64,000 bases of DNA from Naegleria gruberi (taxonomy: Eukaryota). This document shows, piece by piece, positions 7,752-63,516 of the stretch. Position numbers and translations under genes: made by a program. Location: assembly GCA_000004985.1 (NCBI GenBank), contig GG738875.1; one strand, given 5' to 3'. How positions within the stretch are numbered: the stretch's first letter is position 1; every line of letters begins with the position of its first letter. Below the pieces are notes generated by a model. It was not told the DNA's origin and did not search any database. It saw only the letters and a program-made list of their open reading frames with translations.

Positions 7752-7760
7752 GAAACGAAG

Positions 7761-11900: not shown

Positions 11901-13865
11901 AAATGTATTTCCAGTAATACATGCAAGTGTGAAAGTGGATGGAATGGAAATAACCAATGTGGAGCTTTTTCATGTGACATTCCTTCTCAACATGGAATTT
12001 GTATTGGTCCAAACACTTTCAAATGTCAAGATGGATGGACAGGACTCGAATGTGAAATTCCAATTTGTTTTGGAAAATTAGGAAATGATCCTAGAGTGTG
12101 TAACTCACAGGGAAGATGTATTTCTAATAATACATGTCAATGCAATAGTGGATGGAAAGGAAATTCTGAATGTTCTCAATTCTCATGTGATGGAATGGCT
12201 GAATGTTCTCAAAATGGTAAATGTATTTCTAATAATACATGCCAATGCAGATCAGGATGGTCTGGACCAAAATGTGATATTGTTGCATGTGATGGAGTTC
12301 AAAACTGTCATGCTAATGGTTTGTGTATTTCAAACAATACTTGCAAATGTAATAGTGGATGGGAAGGTCAATCATGTTTGGAGTATAATTGCAATGGTAC
12401 CAACAATTGTCAACCGAACGGTCTATGCATTTCGAATAATACTTGTAAATGTAATGATGAATTTGGTGGAAATGATTGTTCAATACCTTACTGTTTTGGA
12501 AAATTGGGTAATAGTGGATGTGAAGATAATGGAATTTGCTCATTTTTCAACAAGTGCTCATGTTTTCCTCTTTACTTTGGAGATCAATGTTCATGGTTAG
12601 ATTGTGATCCAACTTCAAAAGATACATCCCAAAATTCAACTAAAAGATGCTCCTCAAATGGTTATTGTGTTATGACCAGAAATAATTTGAATCAAAATTC
12701 TACCATTTGTGAATGTAATAAGGGATATAATGGTCAATTTTGCCAAAATAGTGATTCTACGAATGGATCGGGAACAATAGCTGCTATAGTTGTTACAATA
12801 CTTGTTATAATTTTGGTATTTATATTAATGATAAGTGTTGGTACTTTTATCTATGTTAAAAAGTTCAGAAACAAATATCAAGATCCAGAGAAAATGAAAA
12901 TGTTAAACAATACTACACCATCAACTTATTCAGAATCAAGTTGGTCAAATTCTCTCTCCATTCAGAATGACACTAGTTTAATAAGTAATACTCACAGTAG
13001 TATTTCATCAAAGACACATTTCAAAATTAGGGATAAAGAATACATAATGGAAAGAAAATTAGGAAGTGGTGCTAATGGTTCTGTATTTGTATTTAAGGAA
13101 ATTAATACCAATCAGCATTTTGCCGTAAAGCAAATAGAAGTAACAAATCCATTTGGTACGGAATTTAAAGAAGTCGTGAATATGTTTGAATTGACTGAGG
13201 ATTCTAATGCTCATATTGTACCAATTATTGGCTGTACAATGGTCGAGAATGGAGGATTCATTTGTATTCTCATGCCACTCTACAAGTGTGATTTGAGAGA
13301 TTGGATATATACAAATCAAAAATCAATCACAATTGATCTAATTATTGAAATTGTAAAACAAATTGCTTTAGGATTACAATATCTCCATTCCAAGAATATG
13401 ATACACAGAGATTTGAAACAAACAAACATATTCATTGCCAAAGCCAATGAAAAAGATGTATCAAAATGTGATGACTTTTTATTGTGCATTGGAGATTGGG
13501 GATCTTCCAGATCTAATTCACGATCTGGTCTGACTGTCTATGAAGGAACAATTCAATTCAGTTCTCCAGAAGCAATCATTAAGGGAGAAGTTGAACAAGC
13601 AAGTGATATTTGGAGTTTGGGATGTGTTTTCTATCAATTATTATCTGGAGATTATGAATCAATTTTGTTTAGGATTAAACAAGGCAATGATCTGGCAGAT
13701 AATGAAGTACTCTTACCAAAAATTCTTAATTTTGGTAAAAAGATGAATTACAGAGATGGAAAGGTTCAATTTTGTTTTGAATTATTGTGTGAAATGATTA
13801 GATATGATGCCAAGATGAGATTAACTGCCCATCAAATTTTAGCCAAGATTGAAAACTTTAAATAA
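8994..13865 (+). CDS. Receptor-like transmembrane kinase: signal peptide, NHL-type beta-propeller repeats, tandem tenascin-type EGF repeats, TM helix, cytoplasmic protein kinase domain.
   Basis: Hydrophobic N-terminus. Repeated YIADTGNNVIR/YIADTGNNAIRKI/YFANTGTSQIMKL NHL-like motifs. About 5 units of ~73 aa with the CxCxxGWxGxxC EGF pattern. TM stretch IAAIVVTILVIILVFILMISVGTFIYV. Kinase motifs GSGANGSV, AVKQ, HRDLKQTN, DWG (variant DFG), SSPE (variant APE). Confidence 0.7.
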   Translation: MPPLLSFHSSSIIIILILFINSIFFIHSSLASSKTTIIKTTANNYNIKIVAGSYGNTIDSYHFPIISESPIYVQSSSSSSSVVVMEKEEDDGDEIIYLSDTQFCVVRKIQKSLSVVVAGNGICAVPGETSGLAVEFSLTSPGGVYLDESTNILYILDNGLSNSGGFVRTVDMSSGMLNTLQLTYEPAVLMLKSPTMITKNGGIFYIADTGNNVIRSLTFTGQNTAHCKVIIGAVNPDVSMSCVNVDPLSCQLSSPTSITFSSDGMIITDQQNSRFLALQNGIVYPYSLVIPTPLQIMSLGNAEYIVSNGEILYSLTQTTKNGADSTILLKDKSWPIGYFGIDSAQTNLYFMSQLPNLAVSQIVKFNIQSLGQPTVIGGAYPYTLSPNVPASSYYFNGLTQLEYVSDSEIYFASYNTDIIKFDMTAGLATRIAGNMNQPSALSKISKGLLVADTVNRLIKLIDGGGSVSTVAGTNSNGIGCPEGVQATSCELNLPSGVVGTPSILSNQYMFVIADSNANTLRMVANDFTVTTLANSVSNVRYPTGLYYTANGDLYFANTGTSQIMKLAHDNTIAVIAGTGEKGNKGDGGLAVNAALNYPTQVTVTSNGILYIADTGNNAIRKIDSNGIISTVTHNAIQGINGVATTSEGELLYADSYTVRMIQSVACINPQGQVCSNHGKCVDGQCLCESGWRGDSVCGTFSCDIPKPPNAHNCIGPNQYSCMNGWFGDLCNLPICFGIQYNNSAVCSSHGKCVSNNTCNCESGWNGNTKCGTFSCDIPKPPNAFECIGPNQYSCMTGWFGNSCELPICFGIQFNNSAVCSSHGQCVSNNTCICESGWRGDSVCGTFSCDIPKPPNGQQCIGPNQYSCMNGWFGDLCNLPMCFGIQYNSSSVCSSHGKCISNNTCNCESGWNGNKQCGAFSCDIPKPPNAFECIGPNQYSCMDGWFGDLCTFPICFGIQFNNSAVCSSHGKCISSNTCKCESGWNGNNQCGAFSCDIPSQHGICIGPNTFKCQDGWTGLECEIPICFGKLGNDPRVCNSQGRCISNNTCQCNSGWKGNSECSQFSCDGMAECSQNGKCISNNTCQCRSGWSGPKCDIVACDGVQNCHANGLCISNNTCKCNSGWEGQSCLEYNCNGTNNCQPNGLCISNNTCKCNDEFGGNDCSIPYCFGKLGNSGCEDNGICSFFNKCSCFPLYFGDQCSWLDCDPTSKDTSQNSTKRCSSNGYCVMTRNNLNQNSTICECNKGYNGQFCQNSDSTNGSGTIAAIVVTILVIILVFILMISVGTFIYVKKFRNKYQDPEKMKMLNNTTPSTYSESSWSNSLSIQNDTSLISNTHSSISSKTHFKIRDKEYIMERKLGSGANGSVFVFKEINTNQHFAVKQIEVTNPFGTEFKEVVNMFELTEDSNAHIVPIIGCTMVENGGFICILMPLYKCDLRDWIYTNQKSITIDLIIEIVKQIALGLQYLHSKNMIHRDLKQTNIFIAKANEKDVSKCDDFLLCIGDWGSSRSNSRSGLTVYEGTIQFSSPEAIIKGEVEQASDIWSLGCVFYQLLSGDYESILFRIKQGNDLADNEVLLPKILNFGKKMNYRDGKVQFCFELLCEMIRYDAKMRLTAHQILAKIENFK
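10990..12060 (+). repeat. Tandem 219-bp coding repeats (EGF-like units) with a two-unit, ~438-bp higher-order periodicity.
   Basis: ccaatttgttttggaattcaat... recurs at about 11191, 11409, 11629, 11847 and 12059. Alternate units share GWRGDSVCGTFSC versus GWNGN.QCG.FSC variants. Confidence 0.8.
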
Positions 13866-36794: not shown

Positions 36795-38441
36795 TTAATT
36801 ATCAGTAGGTTTATTTAAGAATAGTTTGAAAACTGTTTTCATAGTTTTAACATATGGCTTCTTTTTGTGTTGATCTATACAATCAAATATTTCTTTCTGT
36901 CCAATAATATGAACTGTATGTGATGCATTGACGTCTTCATCATAGGCTGTTGCTTTCTTTTTATATGAATTATACTGTTGTTTAAGAGAGGAAATACTAA
37001 GTGTTTCCATATTTGGAGAAATAAGCAATCTTAGACATGGATTTGATTCTAATTTAAAATTCTTAATGATGTCTTGAGTGTCTAGTTCGGTGTGTGGAAG
37101 ATAGATCTCTTTTTTGGTGATTTGTAAATTTTTGAAATTAGTCGTTTCTAACATTCTACAAGCTTTACAAGGTTGAATTGGATTATTAACAGGATCAGAG
37201 ATTAAGGATATAGCTGAAAGCACTGTGACATGAAGATTCTCCGAATTCTTCAGATAAAATATAAGATCAGGGCCCATTTTGTTATATGGTTTGATACCAG
37301 AATCAAGAAATATGTTGTCTAATTGTGAGTACCACATTCCTAGAATATTATTAGAAAGCTCGAGGTCGGATTTAGATAAAGTTTTATCCCTTATAAAGCT
37401 GTTAAAATTCAAACAACAGTTGTCAAAAGAGAGGTCTTTTAGCTTTCTAAATAAAGGACTGGAGGAATGATTCTTGGATTTGGATTCTGATAATCTCTCA
37501 CTTTCTTCCATCAGCAATAAGGTTATAAATATTTCAAAGGTATCCTCATTAGTGGATGTTTCACATCGTCTGGCAATATAGGTCCATAATTCTTCTCTAT
37601 AATTAGTAAAAACAAATTTGAAATAGCACTTGTAATCTATTGGATCCACAATTTCAAAAAAGTTGTTGGTTCCAATTCGAACTACATGAGCTACCGAGAG
37701 AGTTATTAGCGCATTTTCAATAGTCCCTTCTCCACTACATGAACACGGCTGACCAAACAACATTTTGAATATTGTTTCCAGAAAAACATGTCTATCACCT
37801 GAATCTATAAATTTAACAACCTTACTTTGAGCATGGGCTACTTTCTCTACCACAACATCATCCAAAATGCTCATACACACACTTTTCAATTGTTTGTTGG
37901 TTGGTTTGTGTAAAGTTCTTGAGTTCATAAGGAGAGCCTTATGAAAATCAGTGGTGTGTTGTGGAGGTCCTGATAACAAATAACAAAATAAAGCCATGTT
38001 TTTGGGACTGAGTGAAAGGTTGAATTTGTGTTCCAAAATTGTTTGAACATGAGTTGGTGACCAAGGTTCAAGACTACCCATTACAATTTTTGAAATTAGT
38101 CTCCCATTATCTGAAATACTTAAATCCACTTTAACCAAATTCAATGTGCTGCCTATGAAAACGACATTATTGAAGGGTAATATTGCCTTATAAATTGCGT
38201 GGAAAAGGCTCCCCTTTGTGCCATCAGAAAGATCAATTGAGCCTTTCTTCATATTCAATAATTCTTGAGATTCATCAAAGGCAATTACAATTTTCACTTT
38301 ATACCTGAGTCGAAATTCAAGTGTTAAACGTGAGCAAATTGTTGAGAGTGTTTCATTTTTCATCATGGAAAACAATGGCTTCCATAGCTCCCAACTGGTC
38401 ATAAGTGGCTGTCTTTTTCCTCTCATATATCTATTAATCAA
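36795..38441 (-). CDS. Hypothetical protein.
   Basis: 548-aa uninterrupted ORF. No motif recognised. Confidence 0.4.
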   Translation of the reverse strand: MINRYMRGKRQPLMTSWELWKPLFSMMKNETLSTICSRLTLEFRLRYKVKIVIAFDESQELLNMKKGSIDLSDGTKGSLFHAIYKAILPFNNVVFIGSTLNLVKVDLSISDNGRLISKIVMGSLEPWSPTHVQTILEHKFNLSLSPKNMALFCYLLSGPPQHTTDFHKALLMNSRTLHKPTNKQLKSVCMSILDDVVVEKVAHAQSKVVKFIDSGDRHVFLETIFKMLFGQPCSCSGEGTIENALITLSVAHVVRIGTNNFFEIVDPIDYKCYFKFVFTNYREELWTYIARRCETSTNEDTFEIFITLLLMEESERLSESKSKNHSSSPLFRKLKDLSFDNCCLNFNSFIRDKTLSKSDLELSNNILGMWYSQLDNIFLDSGIKPYNKMGPDLIFYLKNSENLHVTVLSAISLISDPVNNPIQPCKACRMLETTNFKNLQITKKEIYLPHTELDTQDIIKNFKLESNPCLRLLISPNMETLSISSLKQQYNSYKKKATAYDEDVNASHTVHIIGQKEIFDCIDQHKKKPYVKTMKTVFKLFLNKPTDN

Positions 38442-38470
38442 TACTTCTCAGAATAACTATTGAATGATAC

Positions 38471-38917
38471 CTACTTGAAAAAATCAATTCCTGAAATTGT
38501 TTCATCATATTCCAATAATGTTTTAACAATTAACAAAGCTGATAGTACCATCATCAATACGGATTGTGTAACATCTCCATCAAAATCTTTCATTGCATTA
38601 ATAACATTATCTGAATAACAATTGAAGTAAAGGACGAAAAATCTCTCATAAATGGAAGTATTTGTTGGTGTTGAGCTAGCCAAATTGAAAATAGTATATG
38701 TTTTTCCCGATGAACTCAAATCAATAAATTTGATCATAGTGTAACCATCCTGATCCCTTCCGAACATTGTGGGTTCCTCTAACAGATTTCTAAGGTCTTT
38801 CCCCTTTGACTCAGGAACTCGAACAGTGTCAAAGTTGGAAGACCAGACACTAAGAGCTTCCTTATCAAACCCTTCAAGAGAACTTGGCAACAAAGGAGTT
38901 CTGAAAAAACTCCCCAA
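38471..38917 (-). CDS. Hypothetical small protein.
   Basis: 148-aa ORF on the same strand as, and immediately downstream of, 36795-38441. Could be an upstream exon or a separate gene. Confidence 0.3.
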   Translation of the reverse strand: MGSFFRTPLLPSSLEGFDKEALSVWSSNFDTVRVPESKGKDLRNLLEEPTMFGRDQDGYTMIKFIDLSSSGKTYTIFNLASSTPTNTSIYERFFVLYFNCYSDNVINAMKDFDGDVTQSVLMMVLSALLIVKTLLEYDETISGIDFFK

Positions 38918-39016
38918 TATCGCTCTTTGTTTTTCTGTTTCGTTTGCAATGTTAAGTTTCCCACAACTGCTTGTCTGTTTTGAAATGGTAGACTTGTGCC
39001 CTTTGTGCCTCCAATG

Positions 39017-39529
39017 TTAATAGAATAATGTTAATGTGCTGAATTTTTGTTCGAGAATGTCCTTTGAAATGTAACTCACTAATTGAGGTTTGTGGACCCA
39101 ATAGGCAATCGTGTGACTAGTGGCATTCACAAATGGTTGTTTGTTTTTCTTAAATCTATCACTGATATTTGCTTCAGTTTCTTGTATGTCGGCTCCTCTT
39201 AGAAACTTCAAATCAGATCCCTTAAAATTGTCTAAAAGAAGGAAAATCGCTTTAGTAAAGTCAAGGCTCATTCCTCCCTCAACAAGACCAAGCATTAAAA
39301 CTTTGCAAAAAGTTAAAGAGTCCCACAAATGATAATTTTCAAAATAAATCCTCTCGGAGTTTTTTTCTATTGTAGATTGCATTGTATTATTTACTTCTTT
39401 TGAGGATTGAGTTGTGGTGTTGTTCCTTTCTGTTACGGTTTGGCTTTCATTGTTTTGAGTTGTGTTGAAGAGAAATATTAAAAAAGCGATGAATGCAATA
39501 AACAAAATCAAATAGTCTGTTAAGGTCAT
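39017..39529 (-). CDS. Hypothetical signal-anchor membrane protein (copy 1).
   Basis: N-terminal TM helix LILFIAFIAFLIFLF. Duplicated at 43070-43684, where a 1-nt indel removes the stop. Confidence 0.4.
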   Translation of the reverse strand: MTLTDYLILFIAFIAFLIFLFNTTQNNESQTVTERNNTTTQSSKEVNNTMQSTIEKNSERIYFENYHLWDSLTFCKVLMLGLVEGGMSLDFTKAIFLLLDNFKGSDLKFLRGADIQETEANISDRFKKNKQPFVNATSHTIAYWVHKPQLVSYISKDILEQKFSTLTLFY

Positions 39530-43003: not shown

Positions 43004-43069
43004 GTAAGTGTGTTATATATTTTGAAATAGTAGTGGTTTTTACGCTAATTGATGATGATGATTTTGATA

Positions 43070-46938: not shown

Positions 46939-47973
46939 ATGGGTAACGGTATTTCTAGAGACGAAATGAAACAGCTTCAAGAGCAAACTAAAAATCGTTT
47001 GACCAAGAAGGACATTCAACGTTATCACAAATTCTGGCATGAGCTCTACCCAAGTGGTGACATGACAAGAGAAGGTTTCAGTAAATTTGCACAAATTGCT
47101 CTTCCAAGTGCTCCTCCAGATGCTGATGTTGAATACTTGTTCAGAGCCATGGATGCTAACAAGGATGGTACTATTACTGTAAGTGTGTTATATATTTTGA
47201 AATAGTAGTGGTTTTTACGCTAATTGATGATGATGATTTTGATATTATTATTTGTGTGTATGATGTGTTATAATTTCTTGTTATTGTTGATGTAAATTTG
47301 ATATGATTTGATATATGATCATGGAATATTTCGTTATTATGTTGTTATGAATTGTTTAAAATTATTAATTGGAATGTTAATGATGCAATACGTAATTTTA
47401 CATAACGATCATCATGATGAACTTCTACACTAATTATTACCATTGCTACCACTTGAATATTTTGCATTGATTGTATATATATGAATATTTATAATCGTTT
47501 AATAATAACACATTGATCAAACTCTTCCGAAAACACTCTACAATTCAGTTCAAAGAATTCCTCTTCTTCCAATCTATCACTGCTCCAACAACACAACCTC
47601 TTCAATTCCATGAATTAATTGATTTGGCCTTTGATATGTACGATGAAGACAATGATGGGTATGTTTTTACATCTATTTAACTAATTAATCAATACAATAT
47701 ATATTATTAATATTATCATCATCAATTCATCATCATCAAAATACAACAACAATTATATATAGCTTTGTAACTGCCGAAGAAATGAGAGACAGTTTAAGGA
47801 ACATGTTCAAGGCTAAGGGCATGAATGTAAACTCTTCAGAAATTGAGGGAACCATCAATACTCGTATTGAAAATCTGCTCAAGATTGCCGATAGTAATGG
47901 TGATGGAAAACTCACCCGAGATGAAATTGTTAAGGCTTGCCAAAAAGATCCATCTCTCTTGGTCTTGTTCTAA
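46939..47973 (+). CDS. Neuronal-calcium-sensor / calcineurin-B-like EF-hand protein, three exons: join(46939..47178, 47549..47658, 47763..47973), 186 aa.
   Basis: N-myristoylation-type start MGNGIS. Three canonical EF loops DANKDGTITFKEF, DEDNDGFVTAEEM, DSNGDGKLTRDEI. GTAAGT/GTATGT donors and AG acceptors preserve the frame. Confidence 0.6.
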
Positions 47974-53237: not shown

Positions 53238-56048
53238 TTAAATTCTTTCTTCTTCTGTTCTATCCTCAATACCTGAATAGTCAACCGAATCAACAACTTC
53301 CTGCTCTTGGTGACCTTCCTGTTGTTCTTCATAGGTTTCATCCTCTGGATCTTGATTTTCATCGTGTTGTTCTTCAAAATCATTATCAAAATCCTCAAAC
53401 TCTTCCTCTTCCACTTCTTGGACAACTTGTTGTTGAGGTTGATATTCTTCCTGCTGTTGATCATCATAATAATTATTATTATTATCAGTATTATCCTGTG
53501 AAACATGAACCACTGAAAAATCTTCAGTTCTGAGAGTGTCTGATTGAGGAGCCTCAGAGGTGTCAAAATGAGAATTATCAAACTCTTCAAAATCGCCAAA
53601 AGATGTCTCAGTCTCTCCTGTTGTCTTGATTTCACTAACACCCAAAGAGGCACTAAGTGGGAGATATGCATCCGTTGCAGTCATTATCTCTATTGGATTC
53701 TGGTTGGCTTGAGTTTGGAACATTTGAGATGTATCATGTTGCGGTTCATAGTTTTGATTCTCATTTCCTTCATCATATTGTTTAAGGAAATCTTCTGCTG
53801 ATTGAGGTTGATTTGGAGCATATCCATTGGATTCTTCTTCTTCTTGTGTTTCTTCAACCTCAATAACTGGCGTTGGATCATGATCGCCATGGAATTGAGA
53901 AAATTGATAGCCTTGATCTTCTTCCTCTTCTTGTGTTTCCTCAACCTCAATAACTGGCTTGGTATTGATTTCCTTCTCTTTCTTCTCCTTCTTCTTTTCC
54001 TTTTTATCCTTTTTGTCCTTCTTGTCCTTCTTTTTCTTTTTTTCTTCTTCAGATGAAGATGAAGAGGAAGAGTCTGTACTCTCTTCGACCTCTTCAACTT
54101 TTCTTGGTGATGGTTTTTTCACACTAGACTCTATTATTGGAGATCTCTTTTGACTACTCTTAACGTCCTTCAAGGCTTGCATGCCGTTTTCCTTCTTGAT
54201 TTGATTGTAATTATCTCGTAAGAGTGTTATCAACTTGTTTTGATTCTTCCACAATTCCTTTTCTCTGAATGACATTCCTCTTGTATCAACTCTGGTCATT
54301 GAAGAAAAGAGTTTGTTTGGATTGTCAACAAACTCTTCCATAATAGCTTGATAACTTCTCTGTAAATTATTGTACCTGTCATTATTTTCCTTAATAGTTT
54401 TATACAGTTCTGAGGGTATGGTAATCATTTCCTCTGGTTCTTCCTCTTGTTTTTGGCTCTTTCTTGCCAAAAGTTTAAGTGTATCGGCTAGCTGAGGAAT
54501 GAGGCCACTCATTGTGGTTCCTTCTCTTTCATCATCCTCTTGTTGCTGATGTAAATTTTCCAAAACATGTCTAGCCAATTCCTCCTCCAACCGAACTGAC
54601 TTGTCCACTTTTTTTGAAGTTTTCATACTACTCGTTGCACTTGAGGGGGTTACAGTTTTTTTCTTTGATACAGAAGATTTCGTTGATGAGGAAGCAGATT
54701 GTGGTTTTCTTACTGTTGATGTTCCATGTAAGACATGATACCAATCCTTGGTTGGTTGTTCAAGGTAAGAGTTTGTATTTCTTCCAAGTGTTACGTTTTT
54801 CTTTCTCATACTCAATGAGTCAACTGTCTTTGTACTATTGCTTAGAGAACTGGGTCTGGAAGGGTTTGCTGATGAGGGCCTTTTAATTGGTTGCGTATTT
54901 AAAACCTTTCCTGATGAGGTAATTGATTTTTTCTTGACCTTCTTTTTCGTTTGTCTTTCCTCCACGAAACGTTGAGGCTCCCCTTTCAACTGTCTTGAAA
55001 TATCAGCCAGTTGATTTGCCATCGTATTGATTTGATTCTCTATTTGTCCTCTCATCATGATTGTTTGAGCCTGAGTATCCTTGTAGTGTTGTACAAGAGT
55101 AGACAGTGCTCCCATCTCTCCGTTTGCCATTGTACCTAGCATTGGATTGTATGTATTTTGTACAGGTTGATTTTGGAATGTGTTATCAGTTACAGTAAAC
55201 AGAGGATTTCTTGTGACAGCTCCTGTTTGCATTCTCAATGACTTGTCCATGGTACCAGAGTGTGGACCTCCATCAGTCATTGGTCTCTGTAATGAGAAAC
55301 TCTTGGAAAAGTTTTGAGTCAAGTATTCATTAAAATTATCTATTGGACCTGCCTTAACAAGTGACCTCAATCTCACATCCATATCAATCACTCCAACATC
55401 GTATCCTCTATCATTTTTAATTGTAAATGTTCCACTAATGGTACGTTTCTGTGGTATTCTTTCACCTTTTGGAGCATCAATTTCATCCGAAACTTTCAAT
55501 TCATTGAGAGGTATACTAACACTTCCTATAAGAACTGGTTTCCAATTACCACGACCCATATTAGGATCAGCCATACTTCCTCCGTATGTCATGTCAGTAG
55601 GTGAGGCTGTCAAAATGAATAAAAACACATAGAGGGGTAATGTTTGGATATATTGTCCCAATTCCATTCTTTCCATTGAAAATACTACACTTTTTCCTGT
55701 TCTAAATAACATATTATGTGATGAGACTTTTTCCTGATTCTTCATCATACCAGTTCCATAAAAACTTGTTTGCTTAAATCCTTCTTTAAACATTCTATTT
55801 TCTTGGGTGTCATCTCTTCCATAGGGACCCTCAGGTTTTTGAATGTACATTAGAGGAAACTCCCACAATCTGAATCCTATACAACTGTCATTGGAGAGGA
55901 GTGGATTTGTAGTTTTATAGATGAAATGAGAAACTTCGTGAATGTAGACATCAAGAGACCATAAACTGAGAATAGAGTATGTCACTTTAATTTTAAGTGA
56001 ACCTTGAAACTTACTTTGAGTCAACTTCTGATATTTCTTCCTCTTCAT
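53238..56048 (-). CDS. Large hypothetical protein with K/E-rich and acidic tandem-repeat C-terminus. Probably contiguous with ORF 56011-56412, with a frame change.
   Basis: 936-aa ORF. Repeat PVIEVEETQEEEE...x2. KKKKDKKDKKDKKEKKKEKKEKE. The upstream ORF overlaps by 38 nt in another frame. Confidence 0.45.
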   Translation of the reverse strand: MKRKKYQKLTQSKFQGSLKIKVTYSILSLWSLDVYIHEVSHFIYKTTNPLLSNDSCIGFRLWEFPLMYIQKPEGPYGRDDTQENRMFKEGFKQTSFYGTGMMKNQEKVSSHNMLFRTGKSVVFSMERMELGQYIQTLPLYVFLFILTASPTDMTYGGSMADPNMGRGNWKPVLIGSVSIPLNELKVSDEIDAPKGERIPQKRTISGTFTIKNDRGYDVGVIDMDVRLRSLVKAGPIDNFNEYLTQNFSKSFSLQRPMTDGGPHSGTMDKSLRMQTGAVTRNPLFTVTDNTFQNQPVQNTYNPMLGTMANGEMGALSTLVQHYKDTQAQTIMMRGQIENQINTMANQLADISRQLKGEPQRFVEERQTKKKVKKKSITSSGKVLNTQPIKRPSSANPSRPSSLSNSTKTVDSLSMRKKNVTLGRNTNSYLEQPTKDWYHVLHGTSTVRKPQSASSSTKSSVSKKKTVTPSSATSSMKTSKKVDKSVRLEEELARHVLENLHQQQEDDEREGTTMSGLIPQLADTLKLLARKSQKQEEEPEEMITIPSELYKTIKENNDRYNNLQRSYQAIMEEFVDNPNKLFSSMTRVDTRGMSFREKELWKNQNKLITLLRDNYNQIKKENGMQALKDVKSSQKRSPIIESSVKKPSPRKVEEVEESTDSSSSSSSEEEKKKKKDKKDKKDKKEKKKEKKEKEINTKPVIEVEETQEEEEDQGYQFSQFHGDHDPTPVIEVEETQEEEESNGYAPNQPQSAEDFLKQYDEGNENQNYEPQHDTSQMFQTQANQNPIEIMTATDAYLPLSASLGVSEIKTTGETETSFGDFEEFDNSHFDTSEAPQSDTLRTEDFSVVHVSQDNTDNNNNYYDDQQQEEYQPQQQVVQEVEEEEFEDFDNDFEEQHDENQDPEDETYEEQQEGHQEQEVVDSVDYSGIEDRTEEERI

Positions 56049-56412
56049 AGTAGTCGTTTTGAGAAGATAAAGATGAGGTGGATCGAGGTGAATCCTCCAC
56101 TAATTGTTGTTGAGAACGAGAAGTGTTTTTCATAGATGATGGTTTCCTTGAAGAGGATGATGAGCCAGCATCTTGTCTGTAATTTGATGAAGAAGGTTCA
56201 GGTTGTGTTTGATAATTCGTTCCAATAGTTGGCTGTGTTTTTTTCATCTTACTTTGATGAGGTTGATATTCATAGGGAACAGAATCCGATCCTTCTTTCC
56301 TACTTTTTGGTTGTTGTTTTGTATCAAATGACACCATTCCTCCAGTCCAACTCGATTGAGAGGTACTATGATCATTAGGGTATTTATGTATCGATACTTT
56401 AGAATTCATCAT
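56011..56412 (-). CDS. S/T-rich ORF, probable 5' part of the 53238-56048 gene.
   Basis: Same strand, overlapping ORF ends. Frame change implies a short intron or an indel. Confidence 0.3.
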   Translation of the reverse strand: MMNSKVSIHKYPNDHSTSQSSWTGGMVSFDTKQQPKSRKEGSDSVPYEYQPHQSKMKKTQPTIGTNYQTQPEPSSSNYRQDAGSSSSSRKPSSMKNTSRSQQQLVEDSPRSTSSLSSQNDYYEEEEISEVDSK

Positions 56413-56677
56413 TGAGCGTTTATACTATTTGAATATTATTTCAATAATGAAAAAATCTCTATAGCCCAGTAGTTGATGTACTTTTTTTTAATGTATTTTC
56501 TAAAATTAAGGCGGTAAAATTTAGGCGCCAAAAATAATGTTTTTCAACCTCAAAAAAAATATCTTCACATTGTCCACCCTGAAACATTTTTTCATATTCG
56601 ATCAAAAACAAGCCTCTTCGGAGTGTAAGATAACAATGAAGAATGAAATATTACAAACAAATTAATTTAATTTACAT

Positions 56678-58735
56678 TTAATGGAAAGCACCTCCATTAA
56701 CATTCAAAGTGTTACCACCCAAATTGTAAATGTAACCATACAAGTTGACATTGTTAAAGTTGAAAACACCCTTAGTCAAGACGTTACCATAGAATGGACC
56801 ATTAACAGCAACACTGTTACCAATAACCCAGAAAACATTGTTTTGAGTGGCACCATTGGTGAAAACAAAGTTGATATTGTTGGCATTCAAGTTGGTGCTC
56901 AACTTTAAGACAATCTTACCAGTACCAGAGAAGGTAACCTTGCTGTTACCATTCAAACCTTGTGGGAAACAGTAGACACCAGCAGTGAAAGTCAAACCAG
57001 CACTTGGAATGTTTTGATCCAAATTGCTTTGAGTACAAGTGGCAGCAAACAATTCATCATACTTGGCAATGGCATTTTCAATAACTTCAGCAGATTCACC
57101 ATTAGCAACATTGACAGCATAACCAGAGGCAGCAACGAGTTTTTGAACAGCAAAGGCTCTATCAGTGGCAACACTTCCTGGAACAGTCAATGAGGCAGAG
57201 TTTTGAACCAAGATGGATCCCTTTGAAATGACCTTGTATGGAGTCAAGATAGTACCAAAGGTAGTATCATAGTCACATGGCAAGACATTTGGAACGACAT
57301 ATGAGTCAGTAGTGAACTTCAAGTATGGAATTGTCTTATCTTCAAAGTATCCATCGAAAGTCAATTCAATAGTGAGAGCAGTGTAACCTTGAGCTGGATT
57401 TGGGAAGAAGACTTCATATTCGAATGGGTTTCCAGTAGCCTTTGGAGCAACAGTAACAGCAGTGAAAATTCTACCAATAGTGGTTTGTCTGAAATCTCTA
57501 CCATTTGGATTGTTGGCAGACCACAACTTGACAGCAGTAGGAACCTTACCATTCAAAATGTTCAACTTGACATTAACACCAGCAGCAGTGTAAGTGTGAG
57601 AGAAGGTATATTCAGGAAGTTCAATATTTTTCAAGACAGCATAGTAGAATGAGGCAACAGTCAAGACAACATCGGAACCAGTCATACCGTGACCAGTATT
57701 TGGAATATATCTCAAGTGCTTGTTCTTTCTATTTGGCATATCATTATAACTCAAAGTACTCATATCTGGCCAGAAGAATTCATCACCCATAGAGTTGACC
57801 ATATATTTTCTGTACTTGGCAAGATCTTCCTTCCATTCGAATGGATCAATAACTTCACAGAGCTTGGTAAAACCATAAGAGTTGACGTGTGGAGTGAAAC
57901 CAGCAGCAATATAATCATACATGGCAATTGGGAAGTCACAGAGAGAATTGTAAATGTGCTTGATAGCCTTTTGAGTATTTGGAATTTGAATAACGAGTGG
58001 AATGAGAGCCTTAACTCTTGGATCATTGGCAATACCAACTGTCCAAGTAGTCCAACCTCTCTTTGAGGCACCAGCAACAGTGAATTTTTCAATAGTGACA
58101 CCTGACACTTTGGTTGGCACAAAAGATTGAGTAGTATCCAATGCCAAGAGAGATGCCTTAGTCATAGGAAGTCTTGGAATCCACTTAACGTCCCTTGGGA
58201 AGTCGACTATATGCTTCCAAGCATATCCGATAATACCATCTTCAACTCTAACTTGATGCAATGGATCATTGGCATATGTCAATGGTTGATTAGGAATCAT
58301 CTTGACAGTGACACCAATAGTTTTACCAACAGTAGCCATAGCAATAGTGATTGGATCACCAGTTGGAAGACCATCAGTGGTATCTCCGTTAGTAATATAC
58401 ACAAAAGCTTCCTTTAAGCTTTTATCCAAATTGGTTGGAACAACAACTTCGAGATAGTGGAACCACAATGCACGATAACCAAATTCTTCTGGCAACCATT
58501 CAACTGAGGTCATATTAAGTACATATACAGTAGCACCAGTAACGGTGAATTCACTCAATAATTGATATGAATATTTTGGAGTTGGCTTATTTACATAGTC
58601 GGCCATAACTTTCTTATAGTCGATAATTTTGGTTGGGTCAGCAGCAATGTCAAATTGGTCTTCTGCATTGGAAAGGGCAGCAACAAGAGCCAAAATAACA
58701 GCCAACAAGACAATCAAGCTCTTTGAAAGCTTCAT
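56678..58735 (-). CDS. Secreted protein with signal peptide, large N-terminal domain (possibly PhoPQ-activated-pathogenicity-related-like) and C-terminal DUF3494 ice-binding-protein-like beta-helix domain.
   Basis: Signal peptide MKLSKSLIVLLAVILALVAALSNA. C-terminal LTFTAGVYCFPQGL...INFVFTNGATQNNVFWVIGNSVAVNG...GNVLTKGVFNFNNVNL matches the DUF3494 pattern (PGVY...AVFIFQ...NVFWQVGSSATLG...). Confidence 0.55.
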   Translation of the reverse strand: MKLSKSLIVLLAVILALVAALSNAEDQFDIAADPTKIIDYKKVMADYVNKPTPKYSYQLLSEFTVTGATVYVLNMTSVEWLPEEFGYRALWFHYLEVVVPTNLDKSLKEAFVYITNGDTTDGLPTGDPITIAMATVGKTIGVTVKMIPNQPLTYANDPLHQVRVEDGIIGYAWKHIVDFPRDVKWIPRLPMTKASLLALDTTQSFVPTKVSGVTIEKFTVAGASKRGWTTWTVGIANDPRVKALIPLVIQIPNTQKAIKHIYNSLCDFPIAMYDYIAAGFTPHVNSYGFTKLCEVIDPFEWKEDLAKYRKYMVNSMGDEFFWPDMSTLSYNDMPNRKNKHLRYIPNTGHGMTGSDVVLTVASFYYAVLKNIELPEYTFSHTYTAAGVNVKLNILNGKVPTAVKLWSANNPNGRDFRQTTIGRIFTAVTVAPKATGNPFEYEVFFPNPAQGYTALTIELTFDGYFEDKTIPYLKFTTDSYVVPNVLPCDYDTTFGTILTPYKVISKGSILVQNSASLTVPGSVATDRAFAVQKLVAASGYAVNVANGESAEVIENAIAKYDELFAATCTQSNLDQNIPSAGLTFTAGVYCFPQGLNGNSKVTFSGTGKIVLKLSTNLNANNINFVFTNGATQNNVFWVIGNSVAVNGPFYGNVLTKGVFNFNNVNLYGYIYNLGGNTLNVNGGAFH

Positions 58736-59458
58736 TTGTTATGTGTGGATAGTTGAGTTGTTTTTTTTTGTTATGTTGATTGTTGAGGAGCAATTGACTG
58801 GGTTTTTAAATCTTTGATTGCGCAACTCCAGATTGTGAGACACAGTATTGCGCAAAAATAAATAGTATTGTAAAGTGTGAAATGTAACTTACACAACACT
58901 TTAGACTGCAAACTTCCCTTTTTATCGTTTGCCAAAATTGTGACCAGTTGGTAATTTATAGAAGTGATGTGTAAAATGAAAGTGCTACCTTACCCTATGA
59001 ATGTAAAGAGCGCTATGGTTTTTTGAATTAAATGTAATCTTTGGACAACACTTGGCATGTTTGTAATCTTCAAACCAGATCGAGAATTTCTTCTACTTCG
59101 TATTAGAGAAGGAAATTGAACTGTGTGCCGACTTCAATGTGTCATTGTGTTGAAAATAAATACCAAATGTTGAAGTGTCAACTGATTATTTGAACAAGAA
59201 TGGTTTACAGCTTATTGTAGTGGAGCGATTTAATGGTTTTTGATTGACTAAGAGGGTTAGAAAATTGTTTATGGAACTCTACAGCCATTTCCTAAAGATC
59301 GTTACTAAAGTGTTGGACATGTCTTAGTGCTTTCAGTGAACTGAAGGTGTGGTTAAGGTTATGATTGTAATAATATTGTGGTCAACTGTTTATCCACAAC
59401 AACCGTAGATGCTCAAACAAAATCCAACATAAATGAAGTATGGTTGGCTTTTCAATTA

Positions 59459-60955
59459 TTACCAGAACACATTGAAGTATGGTTCGATTTCATGTTCATA
59501 AAGAAGATCATCATCTTGTTCAATTTTCACAAAGGCAAAACAATTCACCTCCACAATGTGATCCTTGGCTTGCTCTTCATTGTCAACCTGGTAAACTACT
59601 TGATCGCAAACATTGCAAAATCTATTACTATTTTTGTAAACTTGTAGAGATTCAAATTTGAGAGGACATTTGTAGATACATTCGCATTGATTGACTAAAT
59701 TCCATTCATACTCTTTAATTCTGTAATATTTCTTTCGTTCTTTTGAAATATTAATAGTAGGATTATGTATTTTGATGTGATTGATTCTTCTTCTAAGAAC
59801 GCAAAGCCAATTCTTGATATTTAGGTTGTTTCCATTAAAGTTTGGAAAATAAAAACAAACTAATGGTTTCCAAATTTCCAATTGAACTCTTTCAAATGCT
59901 GAACTTTCTTCATTGACGATAGAGGTGATGTTATCGACAACATGACAAAGGGCTCCAGAATTATCTGATTGTGGATCTATTCTTCTATTGAAGAATAGAC
60001 TCAATAATGATTGGTTTACCCATCGCAAATCTATTCAATTCTGATAAATTCAGAAACTTCCAATCAGTATTAGAATCTCAGATGGCAATTCATAGATAGT
60101 AAATTGTGAAATAGATTCTCCAGTACCCAAATCCACATTAATACTACAAATATTCATTAATCCATTTAAAATACTGTGTGGAATAGATGCTGAATTGGGA
60201 ATATCCAATTCTAATCCAATACTTGCCACATTATCCATTGCTTCCTGAACTAACTTATTCAATTCGGGTGTGGTCGTTAAATTCATTAATTTCATATATG
60301 AACGGTTCCAAACCACAGGTGAATTCTCATAGTAATTCAACACCTTCAATCCATATTCAATTACTGGCATCATGTCTAACATTTCCAATAAATCAGCTTG
60401 CATTTTTCCAATTTTCTCTCCCTCACTCAAAATTAAACAATCTCTACAAGATTCCACCTGTCCCACTATTGTTCGAAACACAACTCCCAATTGTTGAAAC
60501 ATTGGAGCAAGTATAGGAACTGGAATGGTGGCGGTGAATCCACTTCTGATGTAAATATTGCGTGGAGATCTTTCTCCAATTTTTGCCCTTGTTTCAAATT
60601 TGAAAGATTGAATTTGTTCAATCAATTCTTCAATTTCTGATGAATTTGTAAAGATTAGTCCAACATTTCCATTCAAATATTCGCAAATTTTGAGTAATGA
60701 CTCTGGATTGTGTTTCCTCTCCGAGGGTTTCACATTAAATTGAATGTCCTGAGCCAAGTTTCGAATAGCACTCTTGATCAATGTATTCTTTCCTTTCAAT
60801 AATATTGCTCTTCCTCTCAATTTCATTCGAATTATTTGCAATTGATCCGATTTCATACGAGTATCTATTTCAACAATAATTACATTCGAATGATCATGAA
60901 AATGTTGAATGACATCCTCGAATTTTACACTATTTTCATCATCATTCATTTTCAC
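59459..60955 (-). pseudogene. P0/Mrt4 (uL10)-like domain + F-box + Cys-rich C-terminal domain protein, disrupted copy. ORFs 60050-60955 and 59459-60028 are separated by a compensating -1/+1 indel pair with two in-frame TGA codons.
   Basis: Colinear with the intact paralog 61274-62689. Relative to it, ...agtttc-tgaattt... lacks a T and ...gggtaaaccaatca... has one extra base. Between the two, the frame reads F*IYQN*. Confidence 0.55.
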
Positions 60956-61273
60956 TTATTATTGATTTTAAAAATATGATGAACGTGCAATTGGTTCCAA
61001 GAGTGAGTTGCCGTATTTTTTTTTAATTTTACAGTAAATTTCAGAATTTACTTTTTTAAAGAGCAATTACAATCTTTGTAATGTGTTAATGAGATTAAAA
61101 TATTCAGATATTTATTAAGGTTCAATGAGATTCTCTTTACAATTTGCACAGAGTTTATTGTGGGTGCTGGTTTAATGTCTGGTTTCACACTTGGTTTACT
61201 TTCCATTGACATACAATGCATTGGATATTCTCAAATCGACTGAAAAGGAGTGAAAGGTTGCTGCTCGTTTGGC

Positions 61274-62689
61274 TCATTCATCCCAATAAATAATTCCCAT
61301 AGCTAAATCATCATCGTATTCATCCCCTCCTTCCACAAAAGCAATGCAATTTCCCTTAATGATATGATGTTTGGCTTGTTCTTCACTACCAACTTGGTAA
61401 ACTATCTTGTTGCAGACATTACACATTCTACTGGAAGAGGTGTGAAGTGGAAGAGAATCGTATTTGAGAGGACATTTGTAGATCCATTCACATTGGTTGA
61501 TGAGATTCCATTCGTAACTCTTAATTGCAAAAGATTCGTTTCTTGCTGATGCAAGGTTGACTGAAGGCATGTGTAGCTTGATATGGTCAATTCTTCTTCT
61601 GAGAACGTGGAGCCAATTCTTGATATTTAAATTATTTTTCCTAAAGTTAGGGAAGTAGAAACAAACTAATGGTTTCCAAATTTCCAATTGAACTCGTGTA
61701 AATAGTTCACTCTCTTCATTTATCATAGCAATTGAATTCTTGAGTGATTTCTCAATTGAATGAGATTGTGAAATAATTCTTCTATTGAAGAATAGACTCA
61801 ATAATGATTGATTACCCATCGCAAATCTATTCAATTCTGATAAATTCAAGAAACTTGCAATTAATATCAAAATTTCAGATGGTAATTCATTTACAGTAAA
61901 TTGTTGAATGGAATTAATTGTTCTCAGTTCTACCAAAACTCGACCGACATTCAATAATCCATTGAAAAGACTATGTGGAATAGATGCTGAATTCGGAATA
62001 TCCAATTCTAATCCAATACTTGCCACATTATCTACTGCTTCCTGAATTATACTATTCAAATTTAGAGATGCTCTCAGGTTTTCATATGTTTGATTCCAAA
62101 CCACGTGTGAATTTTCATAGGAAGCTACCACTTTCAGTCCGTATGCAATCATCGGTTCCATCTTCAACAATTCCAAAAAATCTGCCTTTTCCTTTGTAAT
62201 TTTCTCTCCAGCTCTCAAAAGTAAAAAATCTGTCGATGCATATACATCCTGTTGAGCTATGTCTCCAACCTTTGCCTTTGCTTCAAATTTGAAAGATTGA
62301 ATTTGTTCAATCAATTCTTCAATTTCTGTTGAATTTGTAAAGATTAGTCCAACATTTCCTCTCAAATATTCGCAAATTTGATAAAGAACTTCTGGATTGT
62401 GCTTCCACTCTGATGGTTTCACATTAAATTGAATATCCTGAGCCAAGTTTCGAATAGCACTTCTGATCAATGTATTCTTTCCCACCAATAATTCGGCCTT
62501 CTCTCTCAATTTCATTCGAACTATTTGTAACTGATCCGATTTCATTCGAGGATGTATTTTAATAATAATTACATTCGAATGATCATGAAAATGTTGAATG
62601 ACCTTCTCGAATTTTGCACATTTATGAGAGAGACCCTTCTTTTCGGAATGAAATTGTTGTTTTGAAGCTGATTCGTCCAAGTTTTTCAT
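61274..62689 (-). CDS. Ribosomal P0/Mrt4 (uL10)-like domain fused to an F-box and a Cys-rich C-terminal domain (intact paralog).
   Basis: QLQIVRMKLREKAELLVGKNTLIRSAIR, LRGNVGLIFTNSTEIEELIEQIQSFKF and LLRAGEKITKEKADFLELL match uL10/P0/Mrt4 conserved blocks. F-box-like LPSEILILIASFLNLSELNRFAMGNQS. C-terminal CPLKYDSL...CNVCNKIVYQV. Confidence 0.6.
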   Translation of the reverse strand: MKNLDESASKQQFHSEKKGLSHKCAKFEKVIQHFHDHSNVIIIKIHPRMKSDQLQIVRMKLREKAELLVGKNTLIRSAIRNLAQDIQFNVKPSEWKHNPEVLYQICEYLRGNVGLIFTNSTEIEELIEQIQSFKFEAKAKVGDIAQQDVYASTDFLLLRAGEKITKEKADFLELLKMEPMIAYGLKVVASYENSHVVWNQTYENLRASLNLNSIIQEAVDNVASIGLELDIPNSASIPHSLFNGLLNVGRVLVELRTINSIQQFTVNELPSEILILIASFLNLSELNRFAMGNQSLLSLFFNRRIISQSHSIEKSLKNSIAMINEESELFTRVQLEIWKPLVCFYFPNFRKNNLNIKNWLHVLRRRIDHIKLHMPSVNLASARNESFAIKSYEWNLINQCEWIYKCPLKYDSLPLHTSSSRMCNVCNKIVYQVGSEEQAKHHIIKGNCIAFVEGGDEYDDDLAMGIIYWDE

Positions 62690-62807
62690 TCCAACTCAAC
62701 CTCTGAAGGAATATCAATGCATTTCCAGCTGGTTCAGTAACCTTTCTAGTCATCAACTCCATTCGAGAATCGTAAAATATCGTCGATCCACCCTCAAACT
62801 CTCCATC

Positions 62808-63353
62808 CTATTGAGAATTCAGATAAATAATGAGAGTGAGATAACTCTTTGTTTTGTTCTTGTGATCCTCAAAGCTGCCATCGACGTGTTTGTTGAAATA
62901 ATGCCCTGGTTTATACTTGCATAATCTCCAACGAGGATTTATACTTGCTAAGTGCAATGTTCTGCCATCCTTACTCAATGTTTGTGGCAGATGTTGCTTT
63001 ATACGATTCCAGACTATTTCAGTAAATTTTGGATCGTCACTCATTAAACGATCATTAAATCGATCATTATAGGCATAGCAAAACTTATCCGCATCCTCAT
63101 ATCCCATCTTTTCACTCAACTCTATCATTAATTTACATTCGTCTTTTGAAAGCACTTGATCCAATACGAAACATGGTTTCTTTACTTGTTCAACCTCCTC
63201 AACTGTTTTTCTTGAAACTCGTGGACACCAATTATTCGAATCCATCAGAAGCATATTTTTTTGTATTTGTGAAATATTCTCATCATTAGAATCATTCAGT
63301 ATTGGTGCATAGACCATCTCGTTCCATCCTGTAGGAGCAGAAAGTAAAGTCAT
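62808..63353 (-). CDS. 2-oxoglutarate/Fe(II)-dependent oxygenase (prolyl-4-hydroxylase-like) N-terminal part. The ORF is terminated by a TAG inside the conserved core. The conserved continuation is at ~62640-62807.
   Basis: RWRLCKYKPGHYFNKHVDG...SYLTLIIYLN matches the P4H/2OG-FeII HxD...TxLxYLN block. Immediately after the TAG the same frame encodes DGEFEGGSTIFY...AGNALIF, matching the EGGET.F...G.ALLF blocks. Confidence 0.5.
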   Translation of the reverse strand: MTLLSAPTGWNEMVYAPILNDSNDENISQIQKNMLLMDSNNWCPRVSRKTVEEVEQVKKPCFVLDQVLSKDECKLMIELSEKMGYEDADKFCYAYNDRFNDRLMSDDPKFTEIVWNRIKQHLPQTLSKDGRTLHLASINPRWRLCKYKPGHYFNKHVDGSFEDHKNKTKSYLTLIIYLNSQ

Positions 63354-63516
63354 TTTTTTTTAATTTTGTGTGCTTTTTTTATTTTGCACTTTTAATTATT
63401 TTACAAAGTTATTAATAGAATTTTTACTTTTTTTAGAATGATTTCAAAGTTCATCATCAAATAACCAGTTATTAGTTTACAATATTTACAATATTTACAA
63501 TGAGGTGCTGATTAAG

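What the first reader, a model, noticed from the sequence alone, without database searches (positions are those of the whole stretch)
62640..63353. 2OG-Fe(II) oxygenase (P4H-like) gene with a TAG inside its conserved core, overlapping the start of the neighbouring gene
On the minus strand, ...HVDGSF...SYLTLIIYLNSQ is followed by TAG. The same frame then encodes DGEFEGGSTIFY...AGNALIF. So the stop lies exactly between the H-x-D/T.LxYLN block and the EGGET.F block of the double-stranded beta-helix fold. This indicates a pseudogene, a base error, or stop-codon readthrough. The expected final His/Lys-Trp block is not found downstream in this frame, which suggests further disruption. The continuation also overlaps the annotated N-terminus of the P0-like/F-box gene at 62689 in another frame. 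The gene boundaries here are therefore uncertain.
Basis: partly seen in the sequence, partly recalled or inferred. Interest (0 to 1): 0.5.

Follow-up and report, generated by a model that had tools for sequence, protein, structure and literature searches.

The report
Broken copy of a Naegleria oxygenase gene
The stop codon is real in this assembly, but it sits in a dead copy of a Naegleria gruberi prolyl-hydroxylase-like gene that has also lost its last 33 codons to a chromosomal rearrangement, while an intact copy exists elsewhere in the same genome, so this is an ordinary pseudogene and not a recoding event.

Summary
The window comes from the 396-kb scaffold of Naegleria gruberi NEG-M. In detail: on the minus strand a P4H-like 2OG-Fe(II) oxygenase ORF (63353..62811) ends at TAG (62810..62808), between the HxD/YLN block and the FEGGSTIF block.

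The TAG aligns with Leu (TTG) in a 97.6%-identical environmental Naegleria contig, in NEG-M's own intact 251-aa version (NAEGRDRAFT_76964, on a 2,018-bp scaffold) and in three of the four more distant homologues. It is a single T>A change.

Homology to the gene stops at 62702 (codon 217). The last 33 codons, which hold the distal His and the 2OG-binding Lys, are absent from the whole window.

After four filler bases (GGTT), the sequence becomes the −8 position of the P0-like/F-box gene. In the relative, that gene is preceded by a tRNA and a spacer. The "overlap" is therefore the broken frame running into foreign DNA, and both gene boundaries are clear.

The old downstream neighbour lies on the same scaffold, apparently beyond the window's right end. 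This suggests an inversion, with the 2-kb scaffold as the uninverted haplotype.

TAG is a normal stop elsewhere in the window. Verdict: an ordinary inactivated allele or copy. A base or assembly error cannot be excluded without reads. Low interest.

The parts
63354..63452 (-). 5' flank/promoter region of the P4H-like gene, conserved with the relative's contig L001
   Evidence: L001 1-751 aligns without gaps to window 63452..62702 at 97.6% identity.
62811..63353 (-). First 181 codons of the P4H-like 2OG-Fe(II) oxygenase. This is the annotated N. gruberi protein XP_002675981 / NAEGRDRAFT_68945. It contains the HxD motif (H156, D158) and the YLN block.
   Evidence: ORF list. Exact look-up in the protein collection. 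Alignment with homologues.
62808..62810 (-). In-frame TAG at codon 182. It corresponds to TTG (Leu) in the orthologue; the change is a single T>A at window 62809.
   Evidence: Codon-by-codon comparison with L001. Leu is present in P0051, P0001, P0002, P0003 and P0005, and Ser in P0004.
62703..62807 (-). Codons 183-217 (DGEFEGGSTIFY...AGNALIFLQ). They are still colinear with the intact gene and identical to it at protein level.
   Evidence: tblastn with P0001. There is one synonymous difference, AGA/CGA.
62698..62702 (-). Rearrangement junction. Base 62702 is the last base matching the P4H orthologue. Bases 62701..62698 (GGTT) are filler that matches neither partner.
   Evidence: Three-way view of window, L001 and L005. 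blastn end points.
62622..62697 (-). Eight bases of native upstream sequence plus the start of the P0-like/F-box gene A. The broken P4H frame runs open through this stretch to TAA 62624..62622. It is not P4H sequence.
   Evidence: L005 207-9425 aligns to window 62697..53483 at 98.8% identity.
61274..62689 (-). Gene A: a P0-like (Ribosomal_L10) + F-box protein of 471 aa, XP_002675980. It is now joined to the P4H fragment and has lost its native tRNA and spacer upstream region.
   Evidence: 100% match to P0006. Pfam. The relative's upstream region is a 5'-cut tRNA followed by about 130 nt of AT-rich spacer.
59459..60955 (-). Gene B, a tandem paralogue of A. In this scaffold it is broken by a -1/+1 frameshift pair that creates a TGA at 60050..60052. 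It is intact (496 aa) in the relative.

Best explanation
The feature is an inactivated allele, or a very recent copy, of a P4H-like 2OG-Fe(II) dioxygenase gene in Naegleria gruberi NEG-M. It carries two independent lesions. The first is a TTG>TAG nonsense change at codon 182. The second is a breakpoint after codon 217 that removes the last 33-34 codons, which hold the distal iron-binding His and the 2-oxoglutarate-binding Lys. The breakpoint joins the fragment, through four filler bases, to position -8 of the neighbouring P0-like/F-box gene. Neither the annotated 181-aa product nor a read-through product could form the Fe/2OG site, so this copy is non-functional. An intact 251-aa version sits on an unplaced 2,018-bp scaffold of the same assembly. 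The most likely origin (inferred) is an inversion of roughly 6-7 genes, with one breakpoint in the P4H gene and the other in the promoter of gene A. NEG-M would be heterozygous for it, and the 2-kb scaffold would be the uninverted haplotype. Shown: the TAG, the junction, the missing C-terminus, the intact counterpart, and normal use of TAG as a stop. Inferred: the inversion, the heterozygosity, and the order of the two lesions.
For: The window is N. gruberi NEG-M: gene A is 100% identical to XP_002675980 on the 396,166-bp scaffold, and the 181-aa ORF is XP_002675981.

Contig L001 from a 97.6%-identical relative carries an intact 250-aa gene, with TTG where the window has TAG. The 217 shared codons differ by 10 synonymous, 6 missense and 1 nonsense change.

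Homology to L001 stops at 62702. The C-terminal peptide NDKHMLHGGEKVFKGVKYIMRSD... finds nothing better than chance anywhere in the window.

From 62697 downwards the window matches L005 at 98.8% identity. In L005, gene A is preceded by a tRNA and about 130 nt of spacer, not by P4H.

NEG-M's own P0051 (XP_002668126, on the 2,018-bp scaffold) is identical over the 217 codons except for Leu at the TAG, and it continues with the full C-terminus.

Pfam covers profile positions 3-93 of 98 in P0051, 3-73 in the window read-through, and nothing in the 181-aa product.

In the alignment to B. anthracis P4H (5iax), the His of LHGG and the Lys of GVKY match LHGG and GEKW. From my own knowledge of P4H structures, not read from the PDB entry, these are the enzyme's distal iron-binding His and its 2OG-binding Lys.

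The old downstream neighbour N (P0054, D2VJ90) is on the same 396-kb scaffold but not in the window. UniProt accession order is monotonic with window position for 6 genes and places N beyond the right end. That is on the 5' side of the fragment, which is what an inversion would produce.

N on the main scaffold and N' on the 2-kb scaffold differ at V5I, so they are distinct alleles or copies.

Relative to L005, coding indels in the window are multiples of 3, apart from the one frameshift pair in gene B, so sequence quality here is good.
Against: No sequencing reads were available, so neither the TAG nor the junction could be verified independently of the 2010 assembly. The DNA of the 2,018-bp scaffold and the scaffold to the right of the window could not be fetched. 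The second inversion junction (tRNA | P4H 3' remnant next to N) is therefore predicted, not seen. The strand of N is not established. Apart from the TAG, the broken copy shows no extra amino-acid change relative to the intact NEG-M version. The inactivation is therefore very recent, or the TAG is a base error.
Confidence: 0.75

Rival explanations
1. Assembly or sequencing artefact. The TAG would be a miscalled base, and/or the P4H|gene-A junction would be a chimeric join in the 2010 Sanger draft. On this reading the true gene is the intact one on the 2,018-bp scaffold.
For: An intact version that is otherwise identical at protein level exists in the same assembly on a tiny unplaced scaffold. 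The broken copy has no other amino-acid change. The junction carries 4 untemplated bases, as chimeric ligations can.
Against: Two independent defects in one gene would both have to be artefacts. The junction lies inside the main 396-kb scaffold sequence, with no run of N, whereas the intact version is the orphan. The neighbour gene on the 2-kb scaffold differs from the main-scaffold copy (V5I), so the small scaffold is a different haplotype or copy and not displaced reads of the same sequence. The neighbour N lies on the same scaffold in a position consistent with a two-breakpoint inversion. Local sequence quality is good.
Confidence: 0.15
2. The fragment is a partial segmental duplicate, a paralogous dead copy. 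The 2,018-bp scaffold would then be a separate, homozygous locus and not the other allele.
For: The window contains other recent duplications: a 4.1-kb tandem duplication at 97.4% identity, and the tandem A/B genes. Both the P4H gene and N exist twice in the assembly.
Against: No intact P4H of this sequence is recorded on the 396-kb scaffold: the cluster has only 3 members, and P0051 is on one contig of 2,018 bp. Near-identity at protein level (217 of 217 apart from the stop; 184 of 185 for N) fits allelic divergence in an organism described as a heterozygous diploid (PMC9928731).
Confidence: 0.08
3. Functional recoding: the TAG is read through or decoded (for example as Leu or Gln) and a full-length enzyme is made.
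For: The frame stays open and conserved for 35 codons after the TAG.
Against: Even with readthrough, the distal His and the Lys are missing, because the gene ends at the junction 35 codons later. TAG closes other long ORFs in the window, 6 of 36, and no other gene gains a homologous extension when TAG is ignored. No suppressor tRNA is present in the window. The 35 conserved codons are explained by the recency of the lesion.
Confidence: 0.02

Closest known systems
N. gruberi NEG-M NAEGRDRAFT_76964 (XP_002668126, 251 aa, on the 2,018-bp scaffold), and the 250-aa orthologue P0001 on metagenome contig ERZ929261 k127_565816
   Same: The protein is identical (P0051) or 97% identical (P0001) over codons 1-217. 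The 5' flank is also shared with P0001's contig.
   Different: These have Leu (TTG in L001) instead of TAG. They carry the C-terminal NDKHMLHGGEKVFKGVKYIMRSDIMYSKREEL.. block and are followed by the convergent gene N rather than by the P0-like gene.
Prolyl 4-hydroxylases with solved structures: Bacillus anthracis P4H (PDB 5iax) and PBCV-1 viral collagen P4H (5c5t)
   Same: Same double-stranded beta-helix family. phmmer of the intact allele gives E=5.7e-6 (5iax) and 1.2e-3 (5c5t). The HxD, the YLN...EGG.T.F block, the LHGG His and the G.K Lys align. Pfam assigns PF13640.
   Different: The relationship is distant and the substrate is unknown. The Naegleria family has its own conserved N-terminal domain (ECKLMIELSEKMGYEDAD..YAYNDRFNDRLM). 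The window copy lacks the distal His and the Lys.
Naegleria paralogues/orthologues P0002 (N. gruberi, 265 aa), P0003 (N. lovaniensis) and P0005 (N. fowleri)
   Same: 45-57% identity by the two measures reported, with the same architecture. All have YLNSQ(L/S) followed by ..GG.TIF and then MLH.G..V..GVKYILRTD.
   Different: They are intact. The N. fowleri gene is a single exon.
Haplotype-specific structural variants left as small orphan scaffolds (haplotigs) in draft assemblies of heterozygous diploids
   Same: A main scaffold carries one arrangement, and a 2-kb orphan scaffold carries the alternative arrangement with near-identical genes.
   Different: Heterozygosity at this locus is inferred, not shown by read counts.

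Membership tests
2OG-Fe(II) oxygenase superfamily, P4H-like (Pfam PF13640 2OG-FeII_Oxy_3) | Match to the family profile above the curated cut-off | tested here: met
   The read-through translation scores 33.5 bits against a cut-off of 27, but covers only profile positions 3-73 of 98. The annotated 181-aa product alone matches nothing. The intact allele P0051 scores 41.2 bits over positions 3-93 of 98.
2OG-Fe(II) oxygenase superfamily, P4H-like | Proximal H-x-D iron ligands | tested here: met
   H156 and D158 (KHVDG) are invariant across the 7 aligned sequences and align with AHYD of 5iax.
2OG-Fe(II) oxygenase superfamily, P4H-like | Distal His iron ligand | tested here: not met
   It is present as MLHGG in P0051, P0001 and the other homologues. 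It is absent from the window: homology ends at 62702, and tblastn with the C-terminal peptide finds only chance matches.
2OG-Fe(II) oxygenase superfamily, P4H-like | Basic residue (Lys/Arg) binding the C5 carboxylate of 2-oxoglutarate | tested here: not met
   The Lys of GVKY in the homologues aligns with the Lys of GEKW in 5iax. It lies in the deleted 33 codons.
2OG-Fe(II) oxygenase superfamily, P4H-like | Uninterrupted reading frame | tested here: not met
   TAG at 62810..62808, where relatives have Leu or Ser.
Stop-codon reassignment / programmed readthrough | The same stop codon occurs in frame inside other conserved genes of the genome and is not used as a terminator | tested here: not met
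   Of 36 ORFs of at least 150 codons, 6 end in TAG. Ignoring TAG adds only short, non-homologous extensions everywhere except in this gene.
Stop-codon reassignment / programmed readthrough | Cognate suppressor tRNA | tested here: inconclusive
   The window holds only tRNA-Gly(TCC) and tRNA-Val(TAC). The rest of the genome was not available.
Pseudogene / null allele | Disabling lesions relative to an intact, conserved counterpart | tested here: met
   Nonsense change plus 3' truncation relative to P0051 (same strain) and P0001 (a relative).
Pseudogene / null allele | The lesions are real in the organism's DNA, not assembly errors | not testable with these tools
   No reads or second assembly of NEG-M could be reached. 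N. gruberi records are not in the contig index. Metagenome scans for the TAG region and the junction found nothing.
Chromosomal inversion | Two reciprocal junctions flanking an inverted segment | tested here: inconclusive
   Junction 1 (P4H codon 217 | GGTT | -8 of gene A) is seen directly. Junction 2 lies outside the window. Its existence is inferred because the old 3' neighbour N is on the same scaffold, and accession order places it on the 5' side of the fragment.

The most novel reading that the evidence does not exclude
The junction is a real, heterozygous inversion in the laboratory strain NEG-M. Besides killing one P4H allele, it would place the P0-like/F-box gene A directly behind the P4H promoter and a 181-codon upstream ORF. 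That allele of the F-box gene would then be expressed under P4H regulation, or as a long-leader or chimeric transcript. The junction sequence AG|GTTGAGT also happens to resemble a 5' splice site.
Probability: 0.08. Interest if true: 0.3.

Novelty: new member of a known kind. Interest (0 to 1): 0.12.

Why it matters
It matters mainly for annotation. NAEGRDRAFT_68945 (181 aa, "predicted protein") should be flagged as a truncated pseudogene or null allele. NAEGRDRAFT_76964 on the orphan 2-kb scaffold is the functional form. The P0-like gene's start at 62689 is sound.

The locus also gives one concrete case of a candidate haplotype-specific structural variant in the NEG-M reference. It shows that small orphan scaffolds in this assembly can hold the intact versions of genes that look broken in the main scaffolds. 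It gives no evidence for unusual decoding.

Tried and rejected
Tried without result:
- I tried to fetch the N. gruberi scaffold DNA beyond the window and the 2,018-bp scaffold through the look-up of encoding contigs with P0002, P0006, P0051 and P0054. None is on record.
- Two JGI metagenome scans, one with a 27-mer around the TAG (allowing TTG or TAG) and one with a 31-mer at the start of gene A, gave 0 hits.
- Fritz-Laylin et al. 2010 is not held.
- The locus tags appear in no held paper.
- A general literature search for NEG-M haplotypes was unproductive.

Considered and rejected:
- TAG reassignment. The ORF statistics are standard-code, and TAG terminates other genes.
- An intron removing the TAG. 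The homologues, NEG-M's own allele included, align without a gap at the TAG position, and the N. fowleri gene is a single exon.
- The missing C-terminal exon lying further downstream in the window. tblastn finds nothing.
- A simple deletion between the P4H gene and gene A. The old neighbour N is still on the same scaffold.
- An in-frame P4H::P0-like fusion. The two frames differ.
- Conserved synteny of the P4H gene with a P0-like gene in N. fowleri. There is none.

Full report
**Observation**

On the minus strand, an ATG at 63353 opens a 181-codon ORF ending ...NKHVDGSFEDHKNKTKSYLTLIIYLNSQ. It is followed by TAG at 62810..62808. The same frame continues DGEFEGGSTIFYDSRMELMTRKVTEPAGNALIFLQ... 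and stays open to TAA at 62624..62622. In doing so it crosses, in a different frame, the ATG (62689) of a 471-aa ORF.

Pfam 2OG-FeII_Oxy_3 (PF13640) matches the read-through translation at 33.5 bits against a cut-off of 27. The match covers only profile positions 3-73 of 98, so the distal part of the fold is missing.

**Source organism**

The 471-aa ORF is 100% identical to "ribosomal large P0-like protein" XP_002675980 of Naegleria gruberi NEG-M, on a 396,166-bp scaffold. The 181-aa ORF is the annotated XP_002675981 / NAEGRDRAFT_68945, and four further window ORFs are exact NEG-M proteins.

The window is 30-37% G+C. About 49 of its 64 kb lie in standard-code ORFs of at least 150 codons. TAG closes 6 of those 36 ORFs. 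Ignoring TAG joins homologous coding sequence only in this one gene. The window holds only tRNA-Gly and tRNA-Val. There is no sign of stop-codon reassignment.

**The TAG**

The closest relative is P0001, an intact 250-aa protein on a 1,558-bp ENA metagenome contig (L001). L001 positions 1-751 align without gaps to window 63452..62702 at 97.6% identity.

Codon by codon, the 217 shared codons differ by 10 synonymous, 6 missense and 1 nonsense change. The nonsense change is TTG (Leu) to TAG, a single T>A at window 62809. The position is Leu in P0051, P0001, P0002, P0003 and P0005, and Ser in P0004.

The N. fowleri homologue is a single exon of 831 nt for 276 aa. In the alignment, none of the homologues has a gap at the TAG position. 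So no intron removes the TAG.

**The missing distal block**

Homology to L001 stops at window 62702, one base into codon 218. L001 continues NDKHMLHGGEKVFKGVKYIMRSDIMYSKREELN. The window continues with unrelated sequence. A tblastn search of the whole window with this C-terminal peptide gives only chance-level hits.

In the alignment of the intact allele to Bacillus anthracis P4H (PDB 5iax, E=5.7e-6), the His of LHGG and the Lys of GVKY align with LHGG and GEKW. From my own knowledge of P4H structures, not read from the PDB entry, those are the enzyme's distal iron ligand and its 2OG-binding Lys. Both lie in the lost segment. Even a read-through product would lack them, so this copy cannot encode an active dioxygenase.

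**What the fragment is joined to**

From 62697 downwards, the window matches a second contig from the same metagenome. L005 (9,425 bp) positions 207-9425 align to window 62697..53483 at 98.8% identity.

In L005, the P0-like gene starts at the same ATG and has the same 471-aa length. It is preceded by about 130 nt of AT-rich spacer and a tRNA that is cut off at the contig end (Rfam RF00005, 48.5 bits). By eye the anticodon loop reads GCT, which would make it tRNA-Ser. There is no P4H sequence upstream of the gene in L005.

The three-way view shows:
- window: ...ATATTCCTTCAGA GGTT GAGTTGGAATGAAAAAC
- L001: ...ATATTCCTTCAGA ATGATAAACAC
- L005: ...CATCTTAGCTC GAGTTGGAATGAAAAAC

Gene A's start is conserved, and the boundaries are not in doubt.

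**An intact counterpart in the same strain**

The protein cluster containing the 181-aa product also holds P0051 (XP_002668126, NAEGRDRAFT_76964, 251 aa) on a 2,018-bp NEG-M scaffold. P0051 is identical to the window translation over all 217 codons, except for Leu at the TAG. It then continues with the full C-terminus. Pfam covers profile positions 3-93 of 98 in P0051.

That small scaffold also carries N' (P0058). N' is the orthologue of the gene that lies convergent to the P4H gene in L001.

**Origin of the rearrangement (inferred)**

The convergent neighbour N of L001 has a 99%-identical NEG-M orthologue, P0054 (NAEGRDRAFT_80168, UniProt D2VJ90). It lies on the same 396-kb scaffold but not in the window (tblastn).

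UniProt accessions rise monotonically with window coordinate for the genes I could place: D2VJ70 at 32 kb, J71 at 35 kb, J76 at 48 kb, J80 at 57 kb, J81 for gene B and J82 for gene A. By this order, D2VJ90 lies some 6-7 genes beyond the right end of the window. That is on the 5' side of the P4H fragment, whereas ancestrally N lay on its 3' side.

The simplest reading is an inversion with one breakpoint in P4H codon 217/218 and the other 8 nt upstream of gene A. This predicts a second junction next to N: the tRNA and spacer joined to the P4H 3' remnant. I could not read that region.

N on the main scaffold and N' on the 2-kb scaffold differ by one residue, V5I. N' has the residue found in the relative. 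The small scaffold is therefore a distinct haplotype or copy. Naegleria is described as mainly a heterozygous diploid (PMC9928731). From memory, the 2010 genome paper also reported heterozygosity in NEG-M, but I could not consult it.

I therefore favour a heterozygous inversion, with the 2-kb scaffold as the uninverted junction.

**Alternatives**

An artefact (a miscalled base and/or a chimeric join) cannot be excluded without reads. It is favoured by the absence of any other amino-acid change in the broken copy. Several points argue against it:
- It would need two independent errors in one gene.
- The junction lies in the main scaffold, while the intact form is the orphan.
- The two copies of N differ as alleles would.
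- N's placement fits a two-breakpoint event.
- Local sequence quality is good. Relative to L005, coding indels are multiples of three, apart from one specific -1/+1 pair in gene B.

A partial segmental duplication, rather than an allele, is possible and would not change the functional verdict. Functional readthrough is contradicted by the missing catalytic residues.

**Comparison with known families, and novelty**

The intact protein belongs to the P4H-like branch of the 2OG-Fe(II) oxygenases (PF13640). It is distantly related to the B. anthracis and PBCV-1 P4Hs and has a Naegleria-specific conserved N-terminal region. The window copy meets the profile and HxD criteria but fails the distal His, the Lys and the intact-ORF criteria. 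It is a pseudogene or null allele of that family.

No held paper mentions these loci. This is a new instance of a well-known kind of thing. It is useful for annotation and not surprising. Interest: 0.12.

Noticed in passing
window 59459-60955 (-): Gene B, the tandem paralogue of the P0-like/F-box gene, is split into 301-aa and 189-aa ORFs. The cause is a -1 deletion in a T-run (about 60057) and a +1 insertion about 35 nt later (about 60022). The +1 lies in a patch (GCGATGGGTAA) that copies gene A, which looks like a short gene-conversion tract. The relative's contig L005 encodes an intact 496-aa protein (P0053). NCBI annotates only the 299-aa front half (XP_002675979).
   Followed up: partly
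window 61274-62689 (-) and 59459-60955 (-); L005 215-3448: An unusual architecture: the N-terminal Ribosomal_L10 and RL10P_insert domains of the ribosomal stalk protein P0, fused to an F-box and a Cys-rich C-terminal domain. Only the N. gruberi-lineage hits are reported with this length and an F-box; one 268-aa ENA protein with 33% identity (P0008) was not checked. All other hits are ordinary 300-330-aa P0 proteins. Gene A has also lost about 99 nt of the insert domain relative to gene B.
   Followed up: partly
window 38970-43073 and 43124-47248: A 4.1-kb tandem segmental duplication at 97.4% identity. Each copy contains a 72-nt-period tandem repeat (41094-41662 and 45270-45839) inside an ORF.
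   Followed up: no
window 11045-12166 (+): Internal repeats with a period of about 219 nt (77-82% identity) inside the 1,623-aa ORF 8994..13865.
   Followed up: no
window 56678-58735 (-): A 685-aa protein that combines a PhoPQ-activated pathogenicity-related domain (PF10142, E=4e-94) with a C-terminal ice-binding-like domain (PF11999).
   Followed up: no
window 36795-39529 (-): Three minus-strand ORFs (36795..38441, 38471..39016, 39017..39529) abut one another; at least the last two are separated only by an in-frame stop (TAA at 39017..39019). This may be an intron-containing gene or another broken gene, at the edge of the 4.1-kb duplication.
   Followed up: no
L005 1-77 (+): In the environmental relative, a tRNA lies about 130 nt upstream of gene A. 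It is cut by the contig end, and by eye the anticodon loop reads GCT (Ser). This tRNA and spacer are absent from the corresponding place in the window, where the P4H fragment replaces them.
   Followed up: partly
window 62697-62702 (-): The junction sequence CAGAG|GTTGAGT resembles a eukaryotic 5' splice site. This is probably coincidental.
   Followed up: no
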